A DNA stretch of 64,000 bases from Octopus vulgaris (lineage: Eukaryota), in assembly GCA_951406725.2 (NCBI GenBank), contig OX597820.1, forward strand, positions 42,780,001 through 42,844,000, read 5' to 3'. Position 1 is the stretch's first letter; every line of letters begins with the position of its first letter. The notes below the pieces were generated by a model. The model saw only the letters and a program-made list of their open reading frames with translations, was not told the DNA's origin and did no database searches. Positions 3,038 through 58,808 of the stretch are shown here, piece after piece. The translations under genes were made by a program, and so were the position numbers.

Positions 3038-3417
3038 GCCTATATACAATTGATACATAATACTAGACGTGCATATACACACACTCATACATACATACGT
3101 ACGTACATACTTACGTACATACTTACGTACATACATACATAGATACATATATATAAATACCCATACAGATACATATGCATGGATATACACGCAAATACTC
3201 ATACACGTGTATACTCACACATTCACACTGTTAGACATGGAGACGCACAGAGACACAAGTTCGTTTCAGTATTGAATTCTCTCATCCCAAACATAGAAAC
3301 TCCTATATTATTCAATAAGCTAGTCACCAATAAATAAGCTACACATAATGTAACCTAATGGTTTATAATCCATAACCTTTGTAACTACATGTAAATACAC
3401 ATACATACACACTCATA

Positions 3418-3820
3418 TTCTTTTATTCTTTTATCCTTTTACTTGTTTCAGTCATTTGGCTGCCGCCATGCTGGAGCACCAATCTAAATCGAGCAAAATG
3501 ACCCCCAGGACTTATTCTTTGCAAGCCTAGTGCTTATTATACCGGGGTCTTTTTTGCCGAACCGCTAATTTACGGGGACGTAAGCATACCAGCATCGGTT
3601 ATCAAGCGATGGTAAGGTTGAACAAACAAAACACAGAACCATATATATATATACGACGGGCTTCTTTCAGTTTCCATTTACCAAATCCATTCACAATGCT
3701 TTGGTCGGCCCGCAGCTATAGTAGAAGACACTTGCCCAAGGTGCCAAGCAGTGGGGAGACTGAACCCGGAACCATGTGGTTGGTAAGCAAGGTACTTACC
3801 ACACAGCCACTCCTGCACCT
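3418..3820 (-). mobile_element. tRNA-derived SINE, family A (CORE-like), full length
   Basis: Minus strand: A-box-like TGGCTGTGTGG, B-box-like GGTTCAGTC, CORE-like CACCTTGGGCAAGTG, internal (TA)n spacer, GACTGAAACAAGTAAAAG tail. Six more copies in the window. Confidence 0.9.
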
Positions 3821-3823
3821 ATG

Positions 3824-3855
<32 letters not shown>

Positions 3856-3891
3856 TGTATGTATGTATGTATGTATGTATGTATGTATGTA

Positions 3892-4208: not shown

Positions 4209-4410
4209 ATATACTTTATTTAAAGCAGCAGCAAATTCAACAAAATCTGTTACTCTGAGTTTCTCGTTGCCGTTCATCAGACAGTTTTTGCTAGAGAAAC
4301 TCAGAGTAACAGATTTTGTTGAATTTTCTGCTGCTTTAAATAAAGCATATTACTCTACCACTGGTATTTGAGTACTCTATTTTCCACCTTGTTTCACATT
4401 TATATGTTTA

Positions 4411-4414
<4 letters not shown>
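4209..4414. mobile_element. Palindromic hammerhead-bearing element (Penelope-like terminus with inverted arm)
   Basis: Inverted arms 4214-4265 / 4294-4346, 28 bp spacer, extra ~64 bp tail on one side, flanked by (TA)n. Confidence 0.8.
4241..4290 (-). ncRNA. Minimal type I hammerhead ribozyme motif
   Basis: CAAAAACUGU-CUGAUGA-A CG GCAA CG A-GAAA-CUCAGAG UA^ACAGAUUUUG. Stem I 9/10 bp, near-palindromic stem III, GUA triplet; the closing pair of stem II is A.A (non-canonical). Confidence 0.7.
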
Positions 4415-11600: not shown

Positions 11601-11744
11601 TGCCGAAACTGCCGTCAATCTTAAGAATACTCGGTCTGCATACATACATACATACATACATACATACATACATACATACATACATACATACATACATACA
11701 TACATACATGTATACATACATACATACATAAATATATGCATATA

Positions 11745-11967
11745 CTCTTTTACTCATTAACTTGTTTCAGTCATTTGACTGCGGCCAAGCTGGAGCACCA
11801 CCTTTATTCTTATAAATCGACGCCAGGACTTATTCTTTGTAAGCCTAGTACTGATACTATCGGTTTATTTTGCCGAACCGCTAAGTGACGGAGACGTAAA
11901 CACACTGGCATCGGTTGTCAAGTGATGGTGGGTAGACAAACACAGAATCAAACATTAAACACATACA

Positions 11968-12000
<33 letters not shown>

Positions 12001-12196
12001 TATATATATGTATATATACATATATATACGACGGGCTTCTTTCTATCTATCTTCTGTCTATCAAATCCAGTCACTAGGCTTTGGTCGGCCCGAGGTTATA
12101 GTAAAAGATAACTGCCCAAGGTGTCACGCAGTGGGACAGAACCCGGAACCATGTGGTTGGGAAGCAAGCTTCTTACCGTACAGCAACTCCTGTGCC
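11745..12196 (-). mobile_element. SINE family A, full length
   Basis: Colinear with 3418-3820; head abuts (TA)n. Confidence 0.9.
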
Positions 12197-12198
12197 TG

Positions 12199-12290
<92 letters not shown>

Positions 12291-15025: not shown

Positions 15026-15469
15026 CTAGCAGTATAGCCCGGCGTTGTTCGGGTTTGTTTTTTAGTTGCGATTAAAACGGCAGACTTTGATTTCGCGTTA
15101 ACAATGTTTTGGTAGCTTCAAACTATTTTGAAAAGTAAAAGTTTTGCATTATATAGCTTGTTATTTTCTCTAAGTGAACATTTTTCTGGTTGAAATACAT
15201 CGAGAAATGGCGACACAGCAGTCTAAAACTCGTAAAAGCAATAGGGATTTTCATAGAAAAAAGCACCTTTTTGATGTAAATAATTTTTGGTCTTAACATG
15301 GAGCAATTTGACATTTTTCTTCTATGGAATGAAGAGCAAGCTTTCTTCTATCATACTCTCAATTTTCGTCAACTTGCGCCGCAGGGTCTCGGAAGAGATA
15401 TTGTTAGTTGAAAGCTACCAAACCTGCCACACACACACAAACAACTTCAGCTCTATATGTATGTATATA

Positions 15470-18819: not shown

Positions 18820-19565
18820 AAATTTTAGCTAATCCAGCTGCACCGAAATCGCCAGAGACATTGTAGAAATGCATCAAAATTCATTCATGCTAAAACACAT
18901 ACGACCATTATTAAATGCTTAAAAAACTTCACAATGATCTATCAATCCTACTCTATACTTTTAAAAAATTCAGTAAAATCCTGCTTTCAATTAAGTATCA
19001 GACCATCACTGAATATCACATAACGAAAATAAAATATCTAAACTTCACAAAATGTTTATTTGGGTAATATATATACATGCAAACCCTATTCGTCGAGACT
19101 ATTTGCGCATTATTAAATGTTGTAGGTATCTATATATCTATCTAAAGACTTGGTGTTTGGGCTACATTTGTGTATTTTATATATCTCCTTTATTCGGGAA
19201 CAGCTTGATATATTGGGAATATGTCAATGGTATCAGCGGTATTTCGGCTGCCGTTACGTTGTGAGTTCAAATTCCGCCGAGGTCGACTTTGCCTTTCATC
19301 CTTTCGGGGTCGATAAATTAAGTACCAGTTAAGCACTGGGATCGATATAATCGACCTAATACCTACGTCTGTCCATGTTTGTCCCCTCTATATTTAGCCC
19401 CTTGTGGGTAATAAAGAAATAGAAATAGGTATCGGAGTGTTTAAAGACTAAAATTGTAACTGAAAAAATTTAGTTAGCGTGAGGATTGTCAGGCATTTAA
19501 ACATTGGAAATATTTTCCTGTTTCATAATGATTTAAGCCAGGTATCAAAATGCCGATCTCGTGGC
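18820..19565 (-). pseudogene. Possible highly decayed mariner transposase, interrupted by a SINE
   Basis: Weak WVPHxLT-like and GDExW-like remnants on the minus strand; no TIRs found. Confidence 0.25.
19235..19427 (+). mobile_element. SINE family B, 5'-truncated, candidate 6 bp TSD
   Basis: Matches the 184 bp unit at 45223; GGTATC flanks both sides (19229-19234, 19428-19433). Confidence 0.85.
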
Positions 19566-19938: not shown

Positions 19939-20419
19939 AATTAAAATCAGGGTAAAAATTGATATTTATCAATTAGAACCAGTGGTCTAGCATATTAAAG
20001 AAAGAATCCGAAGATTAAAATATTTATATATACCAATTAAGGACTGCACACGAAAAGTGGACAGTCAACATGCTAGATATAGACGTCAAATCGCCATTCT
20101 CCACAAAAAGTTTATGTTCTCAGATCAAACTCAACAAAACCAAAGCAATAAACAAGTGAAAAATATACGAAATAAATATTTACCCATGTACTAAATTTAG
20201 TTTCAGCTGTTATTTTCCGCTGATGATGCTGCACTTTTCCTTGCGGAAAATAACAGCTGAAACTAAATTTAGTACATGGGTAAATATTTATTTCGTATAT
20301 TTTTCACTTGTTTATTGCTTTGGTTTTGTTGAGTTTGATCTGAGAACATAAACTTTTTGTGGAGAAATGATTGTCTATATCTAGCATGTTGACTTTCCAC
20401 TTTTCGTGTAGTCATAATT

Positions 20420-20425
<6 letters not shown>
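19939..20425. mobile_element. Palindromic hammerhead-bearing element, homologous to 57990-58808
   Basis: Inverted arms ~20025-20220 / 20243-20425 with 22 bp spacer; terminal ~86 bp single-copy; (TA)n on both sides. Confidence 0.85.
20220..20280 (+). ncRNA. Hammerhead ribozyme motif, 5' strand of stem I lost at the inversion junction
   Basis: CUGAUGA-U GCUG..UUUUCC UUGC GGAAAA..CAGC U-GAAA-CUAAAUUUAG UA^CAUGGG; palindromic stem III ACUAAAUUUAGU. Confidence 0.65.
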
Positions 20426-20493
<68 letters not shown>

Positions 20494-20769
20494 ATGAAGG
20501 TCAAATTAATTAATTTGGAATAATTATCAATTACCAAGTAGTCTTCGGCATGTAAAAGCCTCATTCGAGGAAAATTTAAGTAATACTAAGCAATAAAGGG
20601 TTTAGCAACGAATTGCCTTACCACATACCGAATTTAGAAATAGCAGTCAAAGAGTTATAGCTATTTCTTCTACTAAAAGGAGATCTCAGTAAAAACAGCA
20701 ATTGGAAGGCAGACACAAACAGGTAAGAGAGAATGAATTGACGGCAATCTATCATACAATTTTAAGTTA

Positions 20770-20870
20770 TCTACGGACGTACGTTTCGAAATCAAGTTTT
20801 TAGGAAAGCATAAGAATTAAATATCAAATAATTCTATCTTACCAAGAACTTCTTTTCTCTTCAGCGTAGA
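20770..20870 (-). ncRNA. Type I hammerhead ribozyme (array copy 1)
   Basis: UCUACG-CUGAAGA-[70 nt stem II closed by GAAA/UUUC]-GAAA-CGUACG UC^CGUAGA; perfect 6 bp stem I, GUC triplet. Confidence 0.88.
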
Positions 20871-21362
20871 ATACTATAATCATAAATGATTATATATTGA
20901 ATTTTGAGATACTAGAAGGCATCAACTCAACTCAGTATCAGAGCGAGCTAGAATCCGCAACTAGTATCACCAAATTCAATGTGTGAATGAAAAGATTGTG
21001 TCACCAGCCCCTTCCCACCCGCGTGTAGCCAAAACAAGATGCTGTGGTCATCTACTGAGATAAAATATGGTTATCCGTAATAATGAAGGGTGAAATTAAT
21101 TAATTTGGAATAATTATCAATTACACCAAGTAGTCTTCGGCATGTAAAAGCCTCATTCGAGGAAAATTTAAGTAATACTAAGCAATAAAGGGTTTAGCAA
21201 CGAATTGCCTTACCACATACCGAATTTAGAAATAGCAGTCAAAGAGTTATAGCTATTTCTTCTACTAAAAAGGAGATCTCAGTAAAAACAGCAATTGGAA
21301 GGCAGACACAAACAGGTAAGAGAGAATGAATTGACGGCAATCTATCATACAATTTTAAGTTA

Positions 21363-21463
21363 TCTACGGACGTACGTTTCGAAATCAAGTTTTTAGGAAA
21401 GCATAAGAATTAAATATCAAATAATTCTATCTTACCAAGAACTTCTTTTCTCTTCAGCGTAGA
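21363..21463 (-). ncRNA. Type I hammerhead ribozyme (array copy 2)
   Basis: Same motif as 20770-20870. Confidence 0.88.
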
Positions 21464-21956
21464 ATACTATAATCATAAATGATTATATATTGAATTTTGA
21501 GATACTAGAAGGCATCAACTCAGCTCAGTATCAGAGCGAGCTAGAATCCGCAACTAGTATCACCAAATTCAATGTGTGAATGAAAAGATTGTGTCACCAG
21601 CCCCTTCCCACCCGCGTGTAGCCAAAACAAGATGCTGTGGTCATCTACTGAGATAAAATATGGTTATCCGTAATAATGAAGGGTGAAATTAATTAATTTG
21701 GAATAATTATCAATTACACCAAGTAGTCATCGGCATGTAAAGGCCTCATTCGAGGAAAATTTAAGTAATACTAAGCAATAAAGGGTTTAGCAACGAATTG
21801 CCTTACCACATACCGAATTTAGAAATAGCAGTCAAAGAGTTATAGCTATTTCTTCTACTAAAAAGGGAGATCTCAGTAAAAACAGCAATTGGAAGGCAGA
21901 CACAAACAGGTAAGAGAGAATGAATTGACGGCAATCTATCATACAATTTTAAGTTA

Positions 21957-22057
21957 TCTACGGACGTACGTTTCGAAATCAAGTTTTTAGGAAAGCATAA
22001 GAATTAAATATCAAATAATTCTATCTTACCAAGAACTTCTTTTCTCTTCAGCGTAGA
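21957..22057 (-). ncRNA. Type I hammerhead ribozyme (array copy 3)
   Basis: Same motif as 20770-20870. Confidence 0.88.
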
Positions 22058-22240
22058 ATACTATAATCATAAATGATTATATATTGAATGGGGTGGGAAG
22101 GGGCTGGTGACACAATCTTTTCATTCACACATTGAATTTGGTGATACTAGTTGCGGATTCTAGCTCGCTCTGATACTGAGTTGAGTTGATGCCTTCTAGT
22201 ATCTCAAAATTCAATATATAATCATTTATGATTATAGTAT

Positions 22241-22341
22241 TCTACGCTGAAGTGAAAAGAAGTTCTTGGTAAGATAGAATTATTTGATATTTAATTCTTA
22301 TGCTTTCCTAAAAACTTGATTTCGAAACGTACGTCCGTAGA
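22241..22341 (+). ncRNA. Type I hammerhead ribozyme (array copy 4, core A9U substitution)
   Basis: Core reads CTGAAGT (T at 22253) instead of CTGAAGA. Confidence 0.7.
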
Positions 22342-22833
22342 TAACTTAAAATTGTATGATAGATTGCCGTCAATTCATTCTCTCTTACCTGTTTGTGTCT
22401 GCCTTCCAATTGCTGTTTTTACTGAGATCTCCTTTTTAGTAGAAGAAATAGCTATAACTCTTTGACTGCTATTTCTAAATTCGGTATGTGGTAAGGCAAT
22501 TCGTTGCTAAACCCTTTATTGCTTAGTATTACTTAAATTTTCCTCGAATGAGGCTTTTACATGCCGAAGACTACTTGGTGTAATTGATAATTATTCCAAA
22601 TTAATTAATTTCACCCTTCATTATTACGGATAACCATATTTTATCTCAGTAGATGACCACAGCATCTTGTTTTGGCTACACGCGGGTGGGAAGGGGCTGG
22701 TGACACAATCTTTTCATTCACACATTGAATTTGGTGATACTAGTTGCGGATTCTAGCTCGCTCTGATACTGAGTTGAGTTGATGCCTTCTAGTATCTCAA
22801 AATTCAATATATAATCATTTATGATTATAGTAT

Positions 22834-22934
22834 TCTACGCTGAAGAGAAAAGAAGTTCTTGGTAAGATAGAATTATTTGATATTTAATTCTTATGCTTTC
22901 CTAAAAACTTGATTTCGAAACGTACGTCCGTAGA
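22834..22934 (+). ncRNA. Type I hammerhead ribozyme (array copy 5)
   Basis: CTGAAGA 22840-22846, GAAA 22917-22920, predicted cleavage after C22928, stem I TCTACG/CGTAGA. Confidence 0.88.
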
Positions 22935-23118
22935 TAACTTAAAATTGTATGATAGATTGCCGTCAATTCATTCTCTCTTACCTGTTTGTGTCTGCCTTCC
23001 AATTGCTGTTTTTACTGAGATCTCCTTTTAGTAGAAGAAATAGCTATAACTCTTTGACTGCTATTTCTAAATTCGGTATGTGGTAAGGCAATTCGTTGCT
23101 AAACCCTTTATTGCTTAG

Positions 23119-24011
<893 letters not shown>

Positions 24012-26367
24012 TATACACACTCGTACGTACGTACACCTATTGCAACAATACGAATATATTTTTCGCTTCGATACAGCAGAGATATTCTACCGAATGCTCC
24101 CAGTTCCGTCCGCACTGTGTTATAAAAGATCTTGCAAAGTTAAGAATGTTGGTAACTCCTAAATTAATTAATTTCGTACATATGACATTAATTACAGATT
24201 GTGTTCTGTTTTATCTTTATATTTTCTTGTAAGGATTTAATCTGCCAAAACGGATCGGAACGAAATAAAAGTCTTGTAATTGGTCTGAAGAGAGTAATAT
24301 ACTGAAATACCCCTTTCACTCTGCATGAATAAATATATCGTATTATACTTATGCAACAATAAAGATTTCTAATAAAACAAATATAGTAATACCAGATATT
24401 CATTCGTCTGTTTATATCATATATACTCACACAGCGTGTGTGTATGTATGTGAATGTGTGCGTATATTTGTGTGGGGTGATATCATGTATATACACATAT
24501 ATATATATATATATGCATGTATGTTCAGAGATGAAGAGAGACATTTGTGAGAGAAAGAAAGAGAGAAAAGCATACAACAATATGAAATTATTTTCTGTAC
24601 TCTTCTAACACCACATACGTGCGTATGGAAAGTCTAGCAATTTCACAGATGCAATCAAAGAATTGGTCAAACGGTCATTCACTTTATCGAAGAACTAAAT
24701 AATCATAGGCACAATTATTAGAAGATCCGTTAAACACACGCACACACACATGTTATATATGTATATATATGTATTATATATGTACATACATATGTATGTG
24801 TATATATTCTATATATACAATACATATGACTATGTAAGTGTATGTGTAGACAATTGTATGTATGTATGTATGTATGTATGTATGTTTGTATGTATGTATG
24901 TATGTATGTACGTATGTATGTATGTACGTATGTATGTATGTACGTATGTATGTATGTATGTATGTTTGTATGTATGTATGTATGTACGCACACATAGTTT
25001 TATAGAACTTTATGCAACGTTCTTGCTTCGTCTTCATTTTGCTCCTGTTTGATTTTTCATTTCGCCGCTGGAAAATGTGTGCACATGATTGGTTGAATGT
25101 TCCTGATTATTATTATAGTGAAGATGACACTGATGACGAAGAGAAGGTGAGTAGAAGTGATGATGATGAGGAGGAGGGGTGGAGAAATAGGAAGGATAAG
25201 AGGAGTACGATGGTGATGTAAATGATACTGATGATGATGACGACCACCACGAAGATGATGATGATGACGATGACGATACCGACGACGATGACGACGGCGG
25301 CACCGACAACGGTTCGGTGGTGATAATGATGATTATGTTGATGATTGTTTTCTTATTATATCCGTTTCATTGTCACCATATTCAATGTAACACTACCTCT
25401 TTTGTTGTGGAACATTTCAATAGTAGAAGAAAAAAAATATTAGGTGGCAGAATTATTCATCTGCATTCCATTGTATTCGGCAAGAAATCTTCTTAATGCC
25501 TTCCTATACTTATTTGCTACAGCACATGGTGTGATGAAATGCAAGGTTTCTTCTGTCTAGTCTGTTATTTCAGGTTTCATAGATCAAATTGCAGCACAAT
25601 AACCTCCATTCATCTCCACAAAAATAACAACAAATACAGAAATGAACAATACAAGAATTTTCTTAAAAACAGAAGGAATGCAAAATAAGTCAGTATTATT
25701 GTCTTAACATTGCGTTGTTAACATACACAACGTTGTTAAAACTTTATATTCATTGTGCTGTGCTTAATATGTTATTAATATGTGCTTAATATGCGTATTT
25801 CATATTACTTCCTTGTTATTGGGGTTCTTATATATTCCTAGTTCAGCCCTTTTGCGGGAGATATAGATTGGAATTGTTCCTTTTTAACCTGGGGCTTCAT
25901 TATTAACAGTGTCCCTTTTAATTTAAAGAGAACATAGTGTAGTTTCTCAGACATTTTGCTGATATTTCAGTGAGATTTCTGTAGAAGCGCATTCTACCCT
26001 TTGGTGACTAATACTGTATTGATGATGATCATCATCATCATGATGGTAGTGGTGGTGGTGGTGGTGGTGGTGGTGGTGTGGTAGGGTGATGTTATTGGTG
26101 TTGGTGGTGGTGTTAGTGTTGGTGATGCGGTGATAGTTGAACACAGCGTTGATATGTAGTAAGAAATGCTTCAAAGATAATCAACCTAAAAAACAAATGC
26201 GTGTCACCCGCAGAGGTGCATATGATAAAGACAACGAGCTCTCATTTTATGCTACTGATCAATGTTTAATAGAGATAACTTAAGTTGCCACCTTATTAAG
26301 TATATGTTGACCATTGCTTATCATACCATATGTTTAAATACTTATGCTCTGAACTGGAATAATTTAA

Positions 26368-26588
26368 CCCATTAATGCATAGCGTCCAGAAAAATGAACG
26401 CAGGAAAAATTAGTATCACTTGTTTCATACGTGTGTATAGCTTGCTTGTTTGTACGCAGCGCCTGCTCACTCAGAGAGCACTAGTTTAGACACAGACTAC
26501 GCCAAAAGTAAGCTCAATAGGTAGTTTACTTAACAAGCAATGGTAATTTTTCCTGCGTCCATTTTTCTGGACACTATGCATTAATGGG
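26368..26588. mobile_element. piggyBac-type MITE (221 bp)
   Basis: TTAA on both sides (26364-26367, 26589-26592); CCC...GGG ends; 45 bp TIRs with 2 mismatches. Confidence 0.9.
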
Positions 26589-26906
26589 TTAACATAAAAT
26601 ATTCAGATGAAGATGGTGAGTAGAAAATGCTATGTACTAATCATAATAGACTATTTTCATCATCTCTGTATAATTAACACATAAGTGGAGAAGCTTCCAG
26701 GCTACCTTAGTGCCTTGGTGCCCAACAAAGGAATAAATTACTCTATTAATTTTGCTTGTTTTCTGATGATCTGGCCTTATGATGTGATTAAGCAACCATC
26801 TTTGTAGCGATTACTGTATAGCAGTGGTTTCCAACCTCGAGTCCGCAAAGCTAGTACTGGGGGTCTGTGAACTAAATTCAAAAATTATACATGCATACAT
26901 ATACAA

Positions 26907-33092: not shown

Positions 33093-33490
33093 AGGCGTGA
33101 CTGTGTGGTAAGAAGGCTGCTTTCTAACTACATAGGTCTGGGTTCATTCCTACTGTGTGGCACCATGGGCAACCGTCTTCTGCTATAGCCGATCAAAGCT
33201 TTGTCTGTCGATTTGGTTGACGGAAACTGAAAGAAGCCCATCATATATATATGTATATATATATGTGCATATGTCTTTATGTATGCGTTTGTCCCCCTCC
33301 AGCGCTTCACAACTGGTGTTAGTGTGTTTACGCTCCCATAGTCTAGTGGTTCGATAACAGACACCGATAAAATAAATGTCAGGTTTTAAAACATAAGTCC
33401 TGGGGTCGATTTCTTCGACTAACACCCTTCACAGCAGTGCCCCAGCATGGCCGCAGTCAGATGACTGAAACTAGTACAGGATAAAAGATA
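33093..33490 (+). mobile_element. SINE family A
   Basis: Colinear with the revcomp of 3418-3820. Confidence 0.85.
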
Positions 33491-33840
33491 TACGAGTAGA
33501 TGTGTGTGTGCGCGCGCAATCACGTGTGTATACACACACTCACTGAGAAACATATGCATACACATATACATGGATGCATAGATACATACATATATATATA
33601 TGCATACATATGCATATGCATAATCATATTTATATAGAGGGGGGAGTTTACGAGGGAACGATATATATGTGTGCGTGTGTGAGAGAAAGAGAGAGAGTGA
33701 GTGTGTGTGTGTGTGTGTGTGCATGTTCATGCATGCCTGTGTGTGTGTGCGTATTTCTCTGAATGTGAACCGTGTTGTATCTATTGATCCACTGAGGAGC
33801 TAATTCAACTTGTTACTCAACATTTGTGTGCGCGCGCGTA

Positions 33841-38399: not shown

Positions 38400-40650
38400 G
38401 TGGCACAAATAAGAATATGACTTAAATCTAGACTTACCAACTTTTAGATATAAGATTCTTGCTCTAACATATTTTTAAAAACCATATCATTGGCAAAATT
38501 TTATATCTATATCTTGGTATTTCTAAACTTAAATAATATATATATATATATGTAATTCGATACCGCCATATGTAATTTAATTTAGATTAGACATCAGCTT
38601 CTGCAGAAACAATAGATATAATCGTTTCATGGTGAAGGCAACTCATGAAGCATTTAAATGTCATTTGCTGTTTTAGTAAACCCTGAGTTGACATAAGAAA
38701 TGTATTGCTACGTTTTGCGAAAAGGAAAGTATCTTCTTTTATTTTACGTTGCACTCCACGCTTTACATGTTTGCGAAACGTATTAGTATTTTTAATGGAA
38801 AGAAAAAGATACCTGACGTTCAGAGTCCCAGTGGTTTCGAGTAAAAGTAAAACAGCATTACCATAACTACTTTTCTTATCTTGTCAATATCATAAGCAAC
38901 GAGTAAAATAATCGAAGCAAATATGAATATCTTAGAAGAGAATTCAGTAAGAAAGCTTCTTCTGCAATAAAACGATACATACTTTCCTTCAGCAACTTGC
39001 TGAAATTTCTGAATGATAACGCTGCACTCCACTTTTATTTTACGCTGCACTCCACGCTTTACATGTTTGCGAAACGTATTAGTATTTTTAATGGAAAGAA
39101 AAAGATACCTGACGTTCAGAGTCCCAGTGGTTTCGAGTAAAAGTAAAACAGCATTACCATAACTACTTTTCTTATCTTGTCAATATCATAAGCAACGAGT
39201 AAAATAATCGAAGCAAATATGAATATCTTAGAAGAGAATTCAGTAAGAAAGCTTCTTCTGCAATAAAACGATACATACTTTCCTTCAGCAACTTGCTGAA
39301 ATTTCTGAATGATAACGCATCATTCAATCATTTATATCAGATGATAAAATCGTTACAAAAGATGAAAGTAACTCTGTTTTTCAAGGATCTTAATTTACTG
39401 CCCAAAGGTTTGAACAAATTCATCTTGCATCACCATGGATCTGAATCTCTTTAATGAATCTTCAGCATTGCTATCCAGCATGTTGAATGAAATAAATATA
39501 TTTCCTGCGCCTCTTTTTTAGAATACAATCCTAGTTTTCTTACATTGATATCGGAGGTATTCTGTCGATGTTTAAAATGTTATGCTAAAGGAATGATGGC
39601 TGTCATTAATATTTCCATGTTGACTCTAAAGAATGTTTCTTTCCTTATATACTACAGAAATTCCAGTGGGTGACCAGTATGAAAAGGAGCACGAAATAAT
39701 TTAGGTTTGAAGAAAATTATCAAGATCATCAGTGGCATATTTATGTAAACCTAAGCCTGATGAATTTACATCTTGCTTAGTAAAGAAGCTACACGACCTA
39801 AGGTGTATCTTTATTTCTTTGGATCAAGTAGAAAAGACCATCACTGAATAGGACAGAAATTACTTTCGAAAGAAGACAACGAAGCTGAAGATTATATCTT
39901 TGAAATATGGAATAAACCCCATCATAATCCTATCGTTAAATATTAAAGTTTGACCTAACGAAGCAATGTATAAATGTTTCGAAAAAGGGCGTTAGATTTG
40001 TTTACTTGCGCACTTCAGTCACTGCCCTGAATACAGAAAAGCTTACTGCAGCGATTTTTTTATGAGTTTCTTCTAGTGATCAAAATACTTCTCTACGAAC
40101 CTAATTCAGCAATTAGTAGTGGCTGTTCGCTCCAATTTAATAAGCCTGATATTAACAGTCTATAACATCACATTCATGCAGATAAATTATCAGAAAAGCT
40201 TACTGATTTAAGCGAAAAGAAAGGTAGAAGATCGACAGTTCAAGCGGGATATATGAAAGATGAAGAAAGCCGATCAAATCTTCAGCAGGACTTTGCTATT
40301 AAATCTCACCCAAGACAATCTTATGAAAGGATTGTTTTTTTTTTTCAATGAGTAATTAAGTTTTTCATTTATTTTTAAGGTACGATTGCTATAGATTTTA
40401 ATCTTATGCACTCTAAACGTTTTCCTCTGAAATAAACAAATTTAGTAATATGCACCTATTTATTTATAGAAATAAAGTTAGTAGATCATTAATCAGATGG
40501 TTATGATGTAGAAAAACCGACGTTATATTTGAAATCAGCGCTCCGACACTTAAGACATCAAAATGATTATTTTAAACTTCATGCTTTTATATAACGCATA
40601 TTTCAACACAATATCGAAGTAATTATCGAAACTTTCGAAATTATTTAGTG
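38400..40650 (+). pseudogene. Decayed DNA transposon, Chapaev3-like (CMC superfamily) transposase relic
   Basis: Fragments FRVPVVS..QHYHNYFSYLVNI (cf. FxVPMVWREPxxHxxDCYFC), YQDHQWHIYVNLSLMNL (cf. HxWxICGDLKV) and ILSLNIK (cf. LPPLHIKLGL) in the expected order. Family assigned from recalled motifs; boundaries approximate. Confidence 0.55.
38736..39318. repeat. Near-perfect tandem duplication, period 296 bp
   Basis: 38736-39022 repeated at 39032-39318 with a 9 bp junction TGCACTCCA. Confidence 0.95.
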
Positions 40651-44171: not shown

Positions 44172-44497
44172 TCAGTCGAAGTCGACTTCATTTACTCGAT
44201 GGATCAGTGTCCTCCAGTCAGTTCTATCCTGGGCTGCTTCTTTCAGATTGGCTATGTCCATTCCGGTATCATTCTTGATGGTGTGAAGCCAGCGGGTTCT
44301 TGGTCGGCCTCTTCCTCTCTTGCCACTGACCATTCCGAGCATGACGTCCTCCTCCAGGGATTTTCTCCGCATAATATGACCAAAATATGCCAATCTATGC
44401 TTGGTGATCCTAGCTTCTAGCGACATTTTCGGCCTGATCTGCTTAAGAACTTCTCCATTGGTGAGCCTCGCTGTCCATGGAATCCGTAAAAGTCTGT
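44172..44497 (-). mobile_element. RTE (BovB-like) LINE 3' end, 5'-truncated
   Basis: RLLRIPWTARLTNGEVL...LAYFGHIMRRKSLEEDVMLGMVSGKRGRGRPRTRWL...QDRTDWR is a typical RTE ORF C-terminus; followed by (GATA)n at 44122-44168. Confidence 0.92.
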
Positions 44498-45175
44498 ACT
44501 GTACTGTACTGATGTAATATGTTGCCACTATTTCAGTTGATTCTGTATGAAGTTTGGTTGCTGTTGCTGTTGTCCATCTTCTTTCTGTTTACCCCCAAAT
44601 CAACACTCATATAACAGATCTATAAGCCCAATTTTTTCTAGGTTGTCAACTTTCCCTTCACCCTTTTTTTTCTCAGACATTCATGTCCCATGATCTATGT
44701 TTTTTTTTTCATAACTTTTCATATTTGAGGGTACATTTGGATGTTATGTCGTATAGTCGTCCGTCAATATATATGCCGCTTCGTAGTGCGGTTTTGTTGC
44801 GTAAAATTGTTTTAGTTTCTCAGTTGAGGCTCAAAATCGAAGCAGAGAGAATGAAAATAAAATCGAATTTATTGACATTTGGGATGCTCAATGGGTGAGG
44901 ATCTAAAAACAATAATAATAACGGCAATAACTCTAGCATCAAACCTTCACTTAAAGTATGTTACTTTTTAAATCACCTACTACTATATTCAATAAAAGAA
45001 CGTTGAACACTTTTGTCCTATATATGGTACATGTGGGGTTTTTTTGTGGAGGGGCTTGTGTGTGTGTGTGCATAAAGCAAGAAAATTTAACGGGATAGCT
45101 TTGTATTTACTCATAAATCTGCTCCACTAACGTCGACCGTCTTGTAAGAAGTTAAAGAGTAATATCAGTAACACG

Positions 45176-45958
45176 GGCGGCGAGCTGGCAGAGTCGTTAG
45201 CACGCTGGGCGAAGTCGTTAGCGGTATTTCGTCTGCCGCTATGTTCTGAGTTCGAATTCCACCGAGATCGACTTTGCCTTTCATCCTTTCGGGGTCGATT
45301 CAATAAATACCAGTTACGCACTGGGGTCTATATAATCGACTTAATCCGTTTGTCTGTCCTTGTTTGTCCTCTCTGTGTTTAGCCCCTTCTGGGTAGTAAA
45401 GAAATAGGTATTTCGTCTGCCGCTACGTTCTGAGTTCAAATTCCGCCGAGGTCGACTTTGCCTTTCCTCCTTTCAGGATCGATTAAATAAGTACCAGTTA
45501 CGCACTGGGGTCTATATAATCGATTTAATCCGTTTGTCTGTCCTTGTTCGTCCTCTCTGTGTTTAGCCCCTTGTGGGTAGTAAAGAAATAGGTATTTCGT
45601 CTGCCGCTACGTTCTGAGTTCAAATTCCGCCGAAGTCGACTTTGCCTTTCCTCCTTTCAGGATCGATTAAATAAGTACCAGTTACGCACTGGGGTCTATA
45701 TAATCTATTTAATCCGTTTGTCTGTCCTTGTTTGTCCTTTCTGTGTTTAGCCTCTTGTGTGTAGTAAAGAAATAGATATTTCGTCTGCCGCTACGTTCTG
45801 AGTTCAAATTCCGCCGAGGTCAACTTTGCCTTTCATCCTTTCCGGGTCGATTGAATAAGTAACAGTTACGCACTGGGGTCGATTTAATCGACTTAATCCG
45901 TTTGTCTGTCCTTGTTTGTCCCCTCTATGTTTAGCCTCCTGTGGGCAATAAAGAAATG
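45176..45958 (+). mobile_element. SINE family B: one head plus 4 tandem 184 bp bodies
   Basis: Head with A-box-like TGGCAGAGTCGTTA once; units start at 45223, 45407, 45591 and 45775, each with GAGTTCRAATTCC and a Nin/Deu-like GCCTTTCATCCTTTCGGGGTCGAT domain. Confidence 0.92.
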
Positions 45959-50033: not shown

Positions 50034-51036
50034 GATATGTAGAAAAATACAAACTGAGACAAGAACGCATAAGAACTTAGAAGACGATACAACAAACACA
50101 GACAGGACATTCGAAGCCCTCAGTCTTCAGTCAAGAACCGGATCATCGTAGTAATTTCGGCTGATTAATCTTGAGATTACTAGAACCGGCCAGCCCTCCA
50201 GGAGAAACTAAGCAACGAGCATTAGAAAAACTAAGCTAGGAGCGTAGATTTCCTGGAAGAAGGATCGAATGCATACGAACACAAAGACAGCAAAAAGGAC
50301 GGTGCAACACGAATATAAAAAACAAAAAACAATAATGAAATACAAAAACGTGGAATACAAAAGCAATAACGGTAAAAACAGCAAGTGTCTTACGACTAAT
50401 AACAGTGCCAACGGGTCTGGCTGGCGTATTTTGGAAAAATTGCCTTAGCGGCGAATTGCCTTAGCGGCGAATTGCCTTAGCGGCGAACGAGGAACGATGT
50501 TATCACGGCGCTGGTCAGAGGCCGAAAGGCAGATTTTGGCCAGCAGTCACGTGACAGAGAAGAGAGAAAAGAAGGAAGAGAGAGAGAAGAGGGACGAAAG
50601 CAACAAGGGGGGAGAATAGAGAGAAAGAAGGAATTAGAGAGGGTAGAAGGGATGGGTGTCAAAGATTGACCTGTGAGTGCAAAGGAAGACAAAGAAATGG
50701 AAGGGTAGGGGAAGAGTAGACCAAAGAATCAGAGGCAAGAGAAGAGAAAAAGAGGGATGAGTAGAGAGAAAAGAGAGAGAAGGGGACAGATCAACGTAGA
50801 ATGCGAAGTAAATGTAAGAGAGAGAGAGAGAAACAAACAAAGTGTAGAGTCGTACCAAATTTACAAGAATATGTGCTCACATAAGTGTTAAGGAGGTGAC
50901 GTGACGCCAGGAATATATATTATGATATGTAGAAAAATACAAACTGAGACAAGAACGCATAAGAACTTAGAAGACGATACAACAAACACAGACAGGACAT
51001 TCGAAGCCCTCAGTCTTCAGTCAAGAACCGGATCAT
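50024..51036. mobile_element. Non-coding element with ~120 bp terminal direct repeats (period 890 bp) in (TA)n
   Basis: 50024-50146 identical to 50914-51036; no TG..CA ends; GA-rich interior; 3 x 16 bp AATTGCCTTAGCGGCG at 50438-50485. Confidence 0.75.
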
Positions 51037-51056
51037 ATATATATATATATATATAT

Positions 51057-51614
<558 letters not shown>

Positions 51615-55230: not shown

Positions 55231-55654
55231 TGATCTACTGTATTTCTCTTAATTTAACGAGTCAACCTTGTTATTTCTTTATAATTTTTTGTATGTATAC
55301 ACGTTACTGGTTATTTCACTCTACAGCCCCAGCCCTTCTTCCCCAAATCGTTCATACCAGCCAACTACCACCCTTATTAACTCGCACTATGCATCCGCTT
55401 CTGGTCAGTTTCTCATACCAGCTACCTTTTCTTGAACCCCTATCGCTAATTTATTGTCATCATCTCTTCATCTCATTCCTATCTGTAATTTTTAAGCGAT
55501 TGACTCCTTCTTCGAATTTGTCAACCAATATTTGAGCATTCCATTGAAGGATCTCTCTCCGAATTTTCAAGTATCCTCTATTCCTCACATGAGCAATATT
55601 GTACATTAATTTGCAAAGTTCAAATCATACGAAAAGACCCCATGAACCAGCAAT

Positions 55655-55878
55655 TTTATTCTTTTATTCTTTTACTTGTTTCAGTCATTTAACTGCGGCC
55701 ATGCTGAAGCACCACCTTTAGTCGAACAAATCGACCCCAAAACTTATTCTTTGTAAGCCTAGTACTTATTCTATCGCTCTCTTTAGCCGAACCGTTATGT
55801 TACGAGGACGTAAACACACTAATAAGGATTGTCAAATGATGGTAGGGGTACAAACACAGACACACAAATATATATATA
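55655..55878 (-). mobile_element. SINE family A, 3' half only
   Basis: Stops at the internal (TA)n spacer, where a Helitron end begins. Confidence 0.85.
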
Positions 55879-57978: not shown

Positions 57979-57989
57979 TATATATATTA

Positions 57990-58808
57990 ACTTGAATAAG
58001 GGTAGAAACTGATATTAATCAATTAAAACCAGTGGCCTAGCATATTAAAAAAACCCGAAGATTTAAAATATTTTTACATACAAAATTTAAAGGACTGACC
58101 ACTAAAAGTGGACGGTCAACATGCTAGATATAGACGTCGAAATCGCTATTTTCCACGAAGAATGCGTTCTCAAATAAAGCTCAGCACAAACCAAAGTGCA
58201 AAAAATAAGCAAGACAAATGAAAATATACGAAATAATAACGATTACCTATGTACCGATCAGTTTCGCTTGTTAATATCTACGCATATTGATCCGTGGAAA
58301 TCTGCAAGCTCATCAGCATAGTCTGTCGTATACAAATATAATTTCCAGGACTAGATACAAAAATGCTTGACCGGAGTCCCGCATGCATAGAGCCCAACAA
58401 ATTATATTTATGTGTATCCTTCAAATGCCTTCACGTTGGCGCGCTGACATCGGAAATCGACCCTGCAGTTAATAAACTGCAGCAGTCAATTTACCGGTTA
58501 GAGAACATTTTTTTAGTATTTAAAATTGAATAAGGGTAGAAATTGATATTAATCAATTTGCAGATTTCCACGTATCCATATGCGTGGATATTAACAAGCG
58601 AAACTGATCGGTACATAGGAAATCGTTATTATTTCGTTTATTTTCATTTGTCTTGCTTATTTTTTACACTTTGGTTTGTGCTGAGTTTTTATTTGAGAAA
58701 ACATTCTTCCTGGAAAATAGCGATTTTGACGTCTATATCTAGCATATTGACCGTCCACTTTTAGTGGTCAGTCCTTTAAATTTTGTATGTAAAAATATTT
58801 TAAATCTT
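57990..58808. mobile_element. Hammerhead-bearing element: 534 bp unit, start of next unit, then inverted arm
   Basis: 57992-58023 repeated at 58526-58557; ~58558-58808 is the revcomp of 58058-58307; homologous to 19939-20425; TA-flanked. Confidence 0.88.
58247..58321 (-). ncRNA. Type I hammerhead ribozyme, canonical core
   Basis: CUAUG-CUGAUGA-GCUUG...CAAGC-GAAA-CUGAUCGG UA^CAUAG; stem I 5/5, G10.1-C11.1 pair, self-complementary stem III ACUGAUCGGU. Confidence 0.88.

What the first reader, a model, noticed from the sequence alone, without database searches (positions are those of the whole stretch)
19939..20570. Shared terminal motif unites four hammerhead elements
Seen: the outer (TA)-adjacent end reads AGGGTAAAAATT..ATCAATTAGAACCAGTGGTCTAGCATATT at 19949, AGGGTGAAATT..ATCAATTACACCAAGTAGTCTTCGGCATGT at 21087, AGGGTAGAAACT..ATCAATTAAAACCAGTGGCCTAGCATATT at 57999, and AGGTGGAAAAT..CAAATACCAGTGGTAGAGTAATAT (revcomp of ~4389-4347). 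It lies at the 3' end of the ribozyme-sense RNA in each case. Inferred: a cis signal for the mobilising RT/endonuclease, which could be used to find the autonomous partner.
Basis: partly seen in the sequence, partly recalled or inferred. Interest (0 to 1): 0.7.

Follow-up and report, generated by a model that had tools for sequence, protein, structure and literature searches.

The report
Structured tails of Penelope-like mini-retroelements
The motif lies in the known one-sided 'tail' of four hammerhead-bearing Penelope-like retroelement insertions; three of them share a folded RNA domain there that probably tells the reverse transcriptase where to start, while the fourth has a different hairpin.

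Summary
The quoted strings are exact, and the four loci are real insertions: hammerhead-bearing, Penelope-like (PLE), each two inverted arms in (TA)n. The motif sits in the 63-95 nt extension present on only one arm (4 of 4), the known PLE 'tail', shown in vitro for another PLE to lie between two RT start sites.

'One motif unites four' is only partly right. A (19940) and C (57988) are one family, 78% identical. B (593-bp tandem) is related by structure: a covariance model built from A+C alone ranks all 4 tail-bearing B copies above every non-element hit (E 0.001-0.016), and B keeps 26 of 26 pairs with 6 compensatory changes. D (4213) scores as noise (E 0.9-2; B-D alignment p about 0.5). D instead carries a bulged hairpin plus YACT also seen in published Hydra-clade PLE ends. 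The 21087 copy is internal, not TA-adjacent. The short motif alone is too weak for a blind scan (E 1.5-5.7). No autonomous partner is in the window.

Best reading: non-autonomous PLE/retrozyme-type elements whose tails are RNA recognition and initiation structures, of two types, probably with different partners. Function is inferred, not shown.

The parts
4213..4413 (.). Insertion D: two inverted arms between (TA)n runs; short end left, long end right
   Evidence: arms 51 identities, 3 mismatches, 1 gap
4247..4284 (-). D type I hammerhead; stems I and III as in published Hydra-2_aMil
   Evidence: compared by eye with the table
4353..4376 (+).
   Evidence: only descriptor hit in the window, 0.04 expected; MFE fold
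4385..4390 (+). D terminal YACCYT-like box
19940..20434 (.). Insertion A: inverted arms; long end left, short end right, merging into the (TA)36 run at 20422-20493
19940..20084 (-).
   Evidence: folding z -4.2
20220..20274 (+). A hammerhead core; 5' strand of stem I lost at the inversion junction
20494..23121 (.). Insertion B: about 2.7 tandem 593-bp ORF-less units (minus) joined at 22089/22091 to about 1.7 inverted units (plus); long end left, short end right
   Evidence: arms 1029 of 1031 identical
20506..20639 (-). B terminal copy of the structured domain (degenerate at its 3' end)
   Evidence: E 0.016; E 0.006
21075..21231 (-).
   Evidence: E 0.0014; pairs
21668..21824 (-). B internal copy of the structured domain
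   Evidence: E 0.0067
22473..22629 (+). B copy of the structured domain in the inverted arm
   Evidence: E 0.0014
20770..20870 (-). B hammerhead with long stem II (also 21363-21463 -, 21957-22057 -, 22834-22934 +)
57988..58808 (.). Insertion C: one full 534-bp ORF-less unit plus partial tandem (minus), joined at 58558 to an inverted arm; same family as A
57988..58135 (-). C structured 3' domain (P1, P2, P4 as in A)
   Evidence: z -3.2
58247..58321 (-). C complete type I hammerhead
58522..58558 (-). Partial internal copy of C's tail (P4 inner stem and ACCCT) at the start of the long arm

Best explanation
The four loci are insertions of hammerhead-bearing Penelope-like elements that target (TA)n. 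B and C are ORF-less tandem units (non-autonomous, retrozyme-type), A is a truncated member of C's family, and D is a short copy of a Hydra-clade-like element. SHOWN: each insertion is two oppositely oriented, 5'-truncated copies, one ending at a long 3' end and one at a short 3' end 63-95 nt upstream; the motif lies between them. In A, C and B it is the 3' half of a conserved, approximately 150-nt RNA domain (long-range helix P1, hairpin P2, single-stranded YACT linker, terminal hairpin P4 closed by GGU/ACC). D has a different, smaller bulged hairpin. INFERRED: an autonomous PLE protein (RT + GIY-YIG) supplied in trans binds this structure on a tandem or circular transcript and nicks both strands of a (TA)n target. 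It starts one cDNA 5-25 nt 3' of the terminal ACC box and a second at an AT-rich site inside the P1 loop; joining the two cDNAs gives the inverted, one-tailed insertion. A/B/C and D probably use different partner families.
For: One long and one short end in 4 of 4 insertions, all 8 ends at (TA)n. This is the PLE architecture described in PMC8557442; in vitro the tail lies between two RT start sites and both strands are cut and extended (PMC11167929). A CM trained on A+C only finds 4 of 4 tail-bearing B copies at 23-28.5 bits versus best non-element 14.9; repeated with the automatic RNAalifold structure, 22-27 versus 14.2 bits. The sequence-only profile gives B only E 0.2-8.6. B keeps 26 of 26 non-conflicting pairs, 6 changed on both sides and 3 on one side. 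The spacers of B and C are unrelated (981 of 1000 shuffles reach the score). Folding favours ribozyme sense in B (z -2.4 vs -0.5) and C (-3.2 vs -2.3). The D hairpin fits a descriptor taken from published Hydra ends: the only hit, 0.04 expected. No ORF in the B or C units.
Against: Only three independent families, and covariation rests on one comparison (A/C vs B) with registers set by hand; the domain boundaries were chosen after I had seen B's fold. CM E-values are rough (about 5-fold). A folds equally well on both strands (z -4.2 vs -4.3) and D's fold is not significant (z -1.7; -1.15). The Hydra descriptor was relaxed to fit D (3-nt bulge, T for C); the strict form gives no hit in the window. 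C's tail folded alone forms a D-like hairpin and C-D similarity is p about 0.002, so D may not be wholly separate. Tails are longer than the 30-40 nt described. No partner, transcript or activity was seen.
Confidence: 0.65

Rival explanations
1. All four elements share one homologous terminal motif and one autonomous partner.
For: C-D p about 0.002 and A-B p about 0.002; ACCACTGGT exact in A and D only; all four have a helix end followed by YACT and a YACCYT box near the long end; C's isolated tail can fold like D's; all four hammerheads have a palindromic stem III of about 4 bp, like published Hydra ones (by eye).
Against: B-D not significant; D in the noise in three CMs and absent from both nhmmer lists; cleavage site to long end is about 105 nt in D versus about 250-290 nt in A/B/C.
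Confidence: 0.15
2. The similarity is passive shared ancestry of pLTR sequence, with no signal function.
For: B and C are also weakly alike between ribozyme and domain (4 of 1000 shuffles); few sequences are available.
Against: Six both-side changes with no broken pair; unrelated spacers; both end sites bracket the motif in every insertion.
Confidence: 0.1
3. The tail acts as DNA, as an endonuclease recognition site in existing copies, as reported for D. virilis Penelope.
For: PMC11167929 summarises earlier work that the tail was needed for endonuclease recognition (original paper not seen). A and B share one TA run, compatible with insertion beside a prior copy.
Against: G-U pairs and strand-asymmetric folding in B and C point to RNA; a long-range helix is not needed in duplex DNA; targets here are (TA)n.
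Confidence: 0.1
4. The domain is a 5'-UTR element of the parent PLE (internal promoter, intron or translation signal) and only happens to lie between the RT start sites.
For: The tail is the start of the main body; PLE promoters and introns overlap this region; the Hydra-1_Ajap hairpins lie just before the ORF.
Against: It is kept in ORF-less units, where translation signals are useless; a promoter would not need RNA covariation.
Confidence: 0.1

Closest known systems
Tail of EN+ Penelope-like elements (PAc of Anolis; D. virilis Penelope), PMC11167929 and PMC8557442
   Same: One-sided 3' extension, inverted 5'-truncated arm, partial tandems, hammerhead upstream, AT-rich targets; stem-loop at the RT start region.
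   Different: Tails here are 63-95 nt, not 30-40; no ORF overlaps them in B or C; a multi-helix domain with covariation between families; short ends often sit at TA-like microhomology, whereas PAc starts at non-homologous sites.
Hydra-clade PLEs (PMC8557442)
   Same: (TA)n preference, canonical hammerhead with short palindromic stem III, a member known from Octopus bimaculoides. D has the same stem I and near-identical stem III as Hydra-2_aMil, and the CTC...GAG-YACT hairpin seen by eye in 3 of 6 published consensus sequences (variant in 1, absent in 2).
   Different: The clade is defined by protein, which is absent here. Hydra-1_Obim's ribozyme and ends do not match any of the four (by eye). 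The A/B/C domain strings are absent from the supplement. The hairpin is not mentioned in the section and passages read.
Metazoan non-LTR retrozymes as non-autonomous PLE derivatives (bioRxiv 10.64898/2026.07.22.740005; PMC4209133)
   Same: ORF-less tandem units of 534 and 593 bp with one type I hammerhead per unit, within the reported 51-972 bp range.
   Different: These are dispersed insertions with the full PLE inversion-plus-tail signature in (TA)n, which points to fresh TPRT of the ORF-less RNA rather than local satellite expansion.
3' stem-loop recognition in stringent LINE/SINE pairs (recalled, from no call)
   Same: A structured RNA end shared in trans with an RT partner.
   Different: Different RT class; here initiation is internal and at two sites.

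Membership tests
EN+ Penelope-like element (structure) | Partial tandem (pLTR) and/or inverted 5'-truncated copy | tested here: met
   Inversion in 4 of 4; tandem in B and C
EN+ Penelope-like element (structure) | One-sided tail extension | tested here: met
   4 of 4, 63-95 nt, longer than the 30-40 described
EN+ Penelope-like element (structure) | Type I hammerhead in the terminal repeat | tested here: met
   Rfam negative; A's stem I incomplete
Autonomous EN+ PLE | ORF with telomerase-like RT and GIY-YIG endonuclease | tested here: not met
   No ORF in the B or C units; no RT or GIY-YIG Pfam hit in 150 of the 156 non-low-complexity frames, out of 321 frames of 62 aa or more
Non-LTR retrozyme | At least two consecutive tandem units with a complete type I hammerhead and no ORF | tested here: met
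   B only: 3 consecutive minus-strand ribozymes 593 bp apart. C has one full unit plus a partial; A and D are too truncated
Non-LTR retrozyme | Self-cleavage and circular RNA | not testable with these tools
   No transcript data or assay
Hydra clade | RT/EN phylogeny, CxCX5C linker, no CCHH | not testable with these tools
   No protein in the window; no eukaryotic genome collection open
Hydra clade | (TA)n insertion and canonical hammerhead | tested here: met
   8 of 8 ends at TA runs; ribozymes compared by eye; neither feature is exclusive to Hydra
Naiad | Lack of a canonical hammerhead | tested here: not met
   Complete hammerheads in B, C, D
Single shared four-element motif | A profile from A+C recovers both B and D above background | tested here: not met
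   B yes with the 150-nt structured model; D no

The most novel reading that the evidence does not exclude
Microsatellite-targeting, hammerhead-bearing PLEs carry a conserved RNA structure in the tail (helix end + YACT + terminal YACCYT box) that the RT reads to set its two start sites. It exists as a compact bulged hairpin shared across cnidarian, echinoderm, crustacean and this host's Hydra-type elements (D), and as an expanded multi-helix form (A/B/C); each insertion uses both start sites once, one per target strand.
Probability: 0.3. Interest if true: 0.65.

Novelty: new variant of a known kind. Interest (0 to 1): 0.42.

Why it matters
How PLE reverse transcriptases, the closest retroelement relatives of telomerase, choose their RNA and their two internal start sites is open; one element has been studied in vitro. 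ORF-less copies strip the RNA to what mobilisation needs. A covarying domain that brackets both start sites gives specific, mutable helices to test, and a search model that works better than sequence (B found at E about 0.001 versus 0.2) for pairing retrozymes with their autonomous partners. The elements themselves are of a known kind.

Tried and rejected
Rfam found no hammerhead family; the miRNA hits there reflect the long palindrome. The motif-only CM and nhmmer are too weak for blind use. A pairing between the ribozyme's stem I 3' strand and the terminal ACCCT box is the best duplex only in A, 1 of 4: rejected as general. L1-style twin priming on a single tandem RNA fits the junction of C only, 1 of 4 (junctions). 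No further family members among the other palindromes or tandems (26364, 38415, 38736, 7343): none has a ribozyme core or exceeds 15 bits. No partner ORF in the window. An A/C pattern in bacterial and archaeal genomes gave 0 hits, as expected. Hydra-1_Obim as partner: no match by eye. The first hairpin-descriptor run had a bug and missed D (fixed). The P2 and P4 coordinates for B were off by one and are corrected. The pattern was mis-specified. A shuffle control for the full hammerhead descriptor was not obtained (script machine lost). Supplement 2 of PMC11167929 (RNA folding figure) could not be read and the bioRxiv supplements are closed; either may describe tail structure. Viral and metagenome collections stayed unchecked.

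Full report
Setting. The window is AT-rich (about 34% GC), full of microsatellites and has no long complex ORF. It looks like an animal genome, probably a cephalopod; that is my impression from recall and was not tested.

Observation. All quoted strings are exact. They belong to four insertions: D 4213-4413, A 19940-20434, B 20494-23121, C 57988-58808. Each consists of two oppositely oriented arms between (TA)n runs. Hammerhead core patterns match only in these four, 7 distinct cores against about 0.2 expected per pattern. Stems I-III are complete in B, C and D; A has lost the 5' strand of stem I at its junction. Rfam does not call them. B is a tandem of 593-bp units and C contains one full 534-bp unit; neither unit has an ORF.

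Where the motif sits. In 4 of 4 insertions one arm runs to a long 3' end and the other stops 63-95 nt earlier; the motif lies in that difference. This is the PLE 'tail': an extension often present at one end only, next to an inverted 5'-truncated copy (PMC8557442, passages). In vitro it is the sequence between two RT start sites in an AC-rich stem-loop, with both target strands cut and extended and uncleaved RNA as the main template (PMC11167929, parts 1-2 of 4). By eye, 4 of the 8 arm 5' ends fall in the ribozyme core or stem II and none at the cleavage site, which fits an uncleaved or circular template. One long plus one short end in all four has a chance of 1 in 16 if ends were chosen independently at even odds: suggestive only.

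Is it one motif? A and C are one family (78% over 280 nt). Tail alignments against 3000 shuffles give A-B 6 (internal copy) and 4 (terminal), C-B 27 and 362, C-D 5, A-D 119, B-D 1533 and 213. A 63-nt model from A+C finds 2 of 4 B copies at E 1.5, below a non-element hit, and D at E 5.7. So the short motif is real given its position but cannot stand alone, and B and D are not directly linked.

A structured domain in A, C and B. Folding shows the motif to be the 3' half of an approximately 150-nt domain: a 10-11 bp long-range helix P1, a hairpin P2, an AT-rich loop holding the short end, a single-stranded YACT linker, and a terminal hairpin P4 closed by GGU/ACC, with the long end shortly after. 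A covariance model from A+C alone, run unfiltered over both strands, ranks all 4 tail-bearing B copies (23-28.5 bits, E 0.0014-0.016) above the best non-element hit (14.9 bits); D is 17th of 46 hits at E 2.1. With the automatic structure the result repeats: B 22-27 bits, background 14.2, D 12.6. The sequence-only profile gives B E 0.2-8.6 and misses D. B keeps 26 of 26 non-conflicting pairs, 6 changed on both sides and 3 on one (registers set by hand, one independent comparison, boundaries chosen after seeing B's fold). Folding favours ribozyme sense in B and C but not in A or D. The B and C spacers are unrelated.

D is different. Its tail folds as CTC-stem-loop-stem-bulge-GAG followed by TACT. 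By eye the same layout occurs at the ends of 3 of the 6 Hydra-clade consensus sequences in the supplement of PMC8557442 (Hydra-2_Amil, Hydra-1_Ajap twice, Hydra-2_Ajap), as a variant in Hydra-1_Crog, and not in Hydra-1_Amil or Hydra-1_Obim. A descriptor from those ends, relaxed to a 2-3 nt bulge and YACT, hits the window once, at D in ribozyme sense; 11 of 300 shuffled windows had any hit, mean 0.04. The strict form has no hit. D's ribozyme has the same stem I and near-identical stem III as Hydra-2_aMil, and Hydra elements insert in (TA)n. Against a clean split, C's tail folded alone can form a D-like hairpin, and all four have a helix end followed by YACT and a YACCYT box near the long end; those are 4-6 nt features and remain a hypothesis.

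Mechanism. Shown: architecture, two end sites, ORF-less units, structural conservation between A/C and B. Inferred: an autonomous PLE RT-endonuclease binds the tail structure in trans, nicks both strands of (TA)n and primes one cDNA at each start site; the cDNAs truncate and join. The rivals (one motif for all four, passive ancestry, DNA-level endonuclease site, 5'-UTR element) are weighed in their sections. No partner is in the window: no RT or GIY-YIG Pfam hit in 150 of 156 complex frames. A partner search should use the two models separately and look upstream of the ORF too, since Hydra-1_Ajap begins with the hairpin.

Comparison and novelty. Hammerheads in PLE repeats, including opposite-strand pairs 100-700 bp apart (PMC4209133, parts 1-2 of 4), retrozymes as non-autonomous PLE derivatives (bioRxiv 10.64898/2026.07.22.740005, parts 1-3 of 5), inverted pLTRs and 3' extensions (PMC8969392, passages) and Penelope elements in cephalopods (PMC8967140, passages) are known. 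I found no description of a tail RNA structure conserved between PLE families, or of the Hydra-type hairpin, in eight searches (other papers seen as listings only). The library lacks most subscription journals, supplement 2 of PMC11167929 was unread and Repbase entries were not seen. Verdict: known class of element, a partly correct observation, and a probably undescribed structured tail of two types. Interest 0.42.

Noticed in passing
window 20422-20493: A and B share one (TA)36 run as flank: two different families side by side, suggesting one inserted into the other's flanking microsatellite.
   Followed up: no
window 4213-4413 and 20020-20434: The near-perfect inverted arms would fold into long hairpins if read through (miRNA-like Rfam hits below cut-off); possible siRNA source.
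   Followed up: no
window 22241-22260 +: The first plus-strand ribozyme copy in B has a core change and is missed by the descriptors; 4 of 5 B copies are intact.
   Followed up: partly
window 20188-20178 with 19959-19947 (minus): In A the stem I 3' strand can pair with the terminal ACCCT box (-9.6 kcal/mol, best of 231 windows); not so in B, C or D.
   Followed up: yes
window about 20180 and 58245 (minus): A GT splice-donor-like site directly follows stem I in A and C, with a pyrimidine-rich tract downstream; PLEs often carry a 5'-UTR intron. Absent in B.
   Followed up: no
window 26364-26592: A 230-bp element with about 40-bp terminal inverted repeats starting CCC inside TTAA, like a piggyBac-type MITE (label recalled).
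   Followed up: no
window 15026-15046 and 23223-23243: Two copies of another repeat start with the same ACTAGCAG end directly after a (TA)n run, Helitron-like (label recalled); one abuts B's right flank.
   Followed up: no
window 45223-45957, 19235-19426 and others: A SINE-like family with many dispersed copies and one four-unit 184-bp tandem.
   Followed up: no
window 44172-44588 -: A 138-aa frame resembling the C-terminus of an RTE/LINE protein (by recall); no Pfam hit.
   Followed up: partly
window 38736-39318: A 296-bp two-copy tandem, 99% identical, with no hammerhead core.
   Followed up: partly
window 3386-3890, 11705-12267, 33093-33510, 51034-51536, 55654-55878: A dispersed repeat family of about 500 bp, 65-84% identical, ending in microsatellites.
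   Followed up: no
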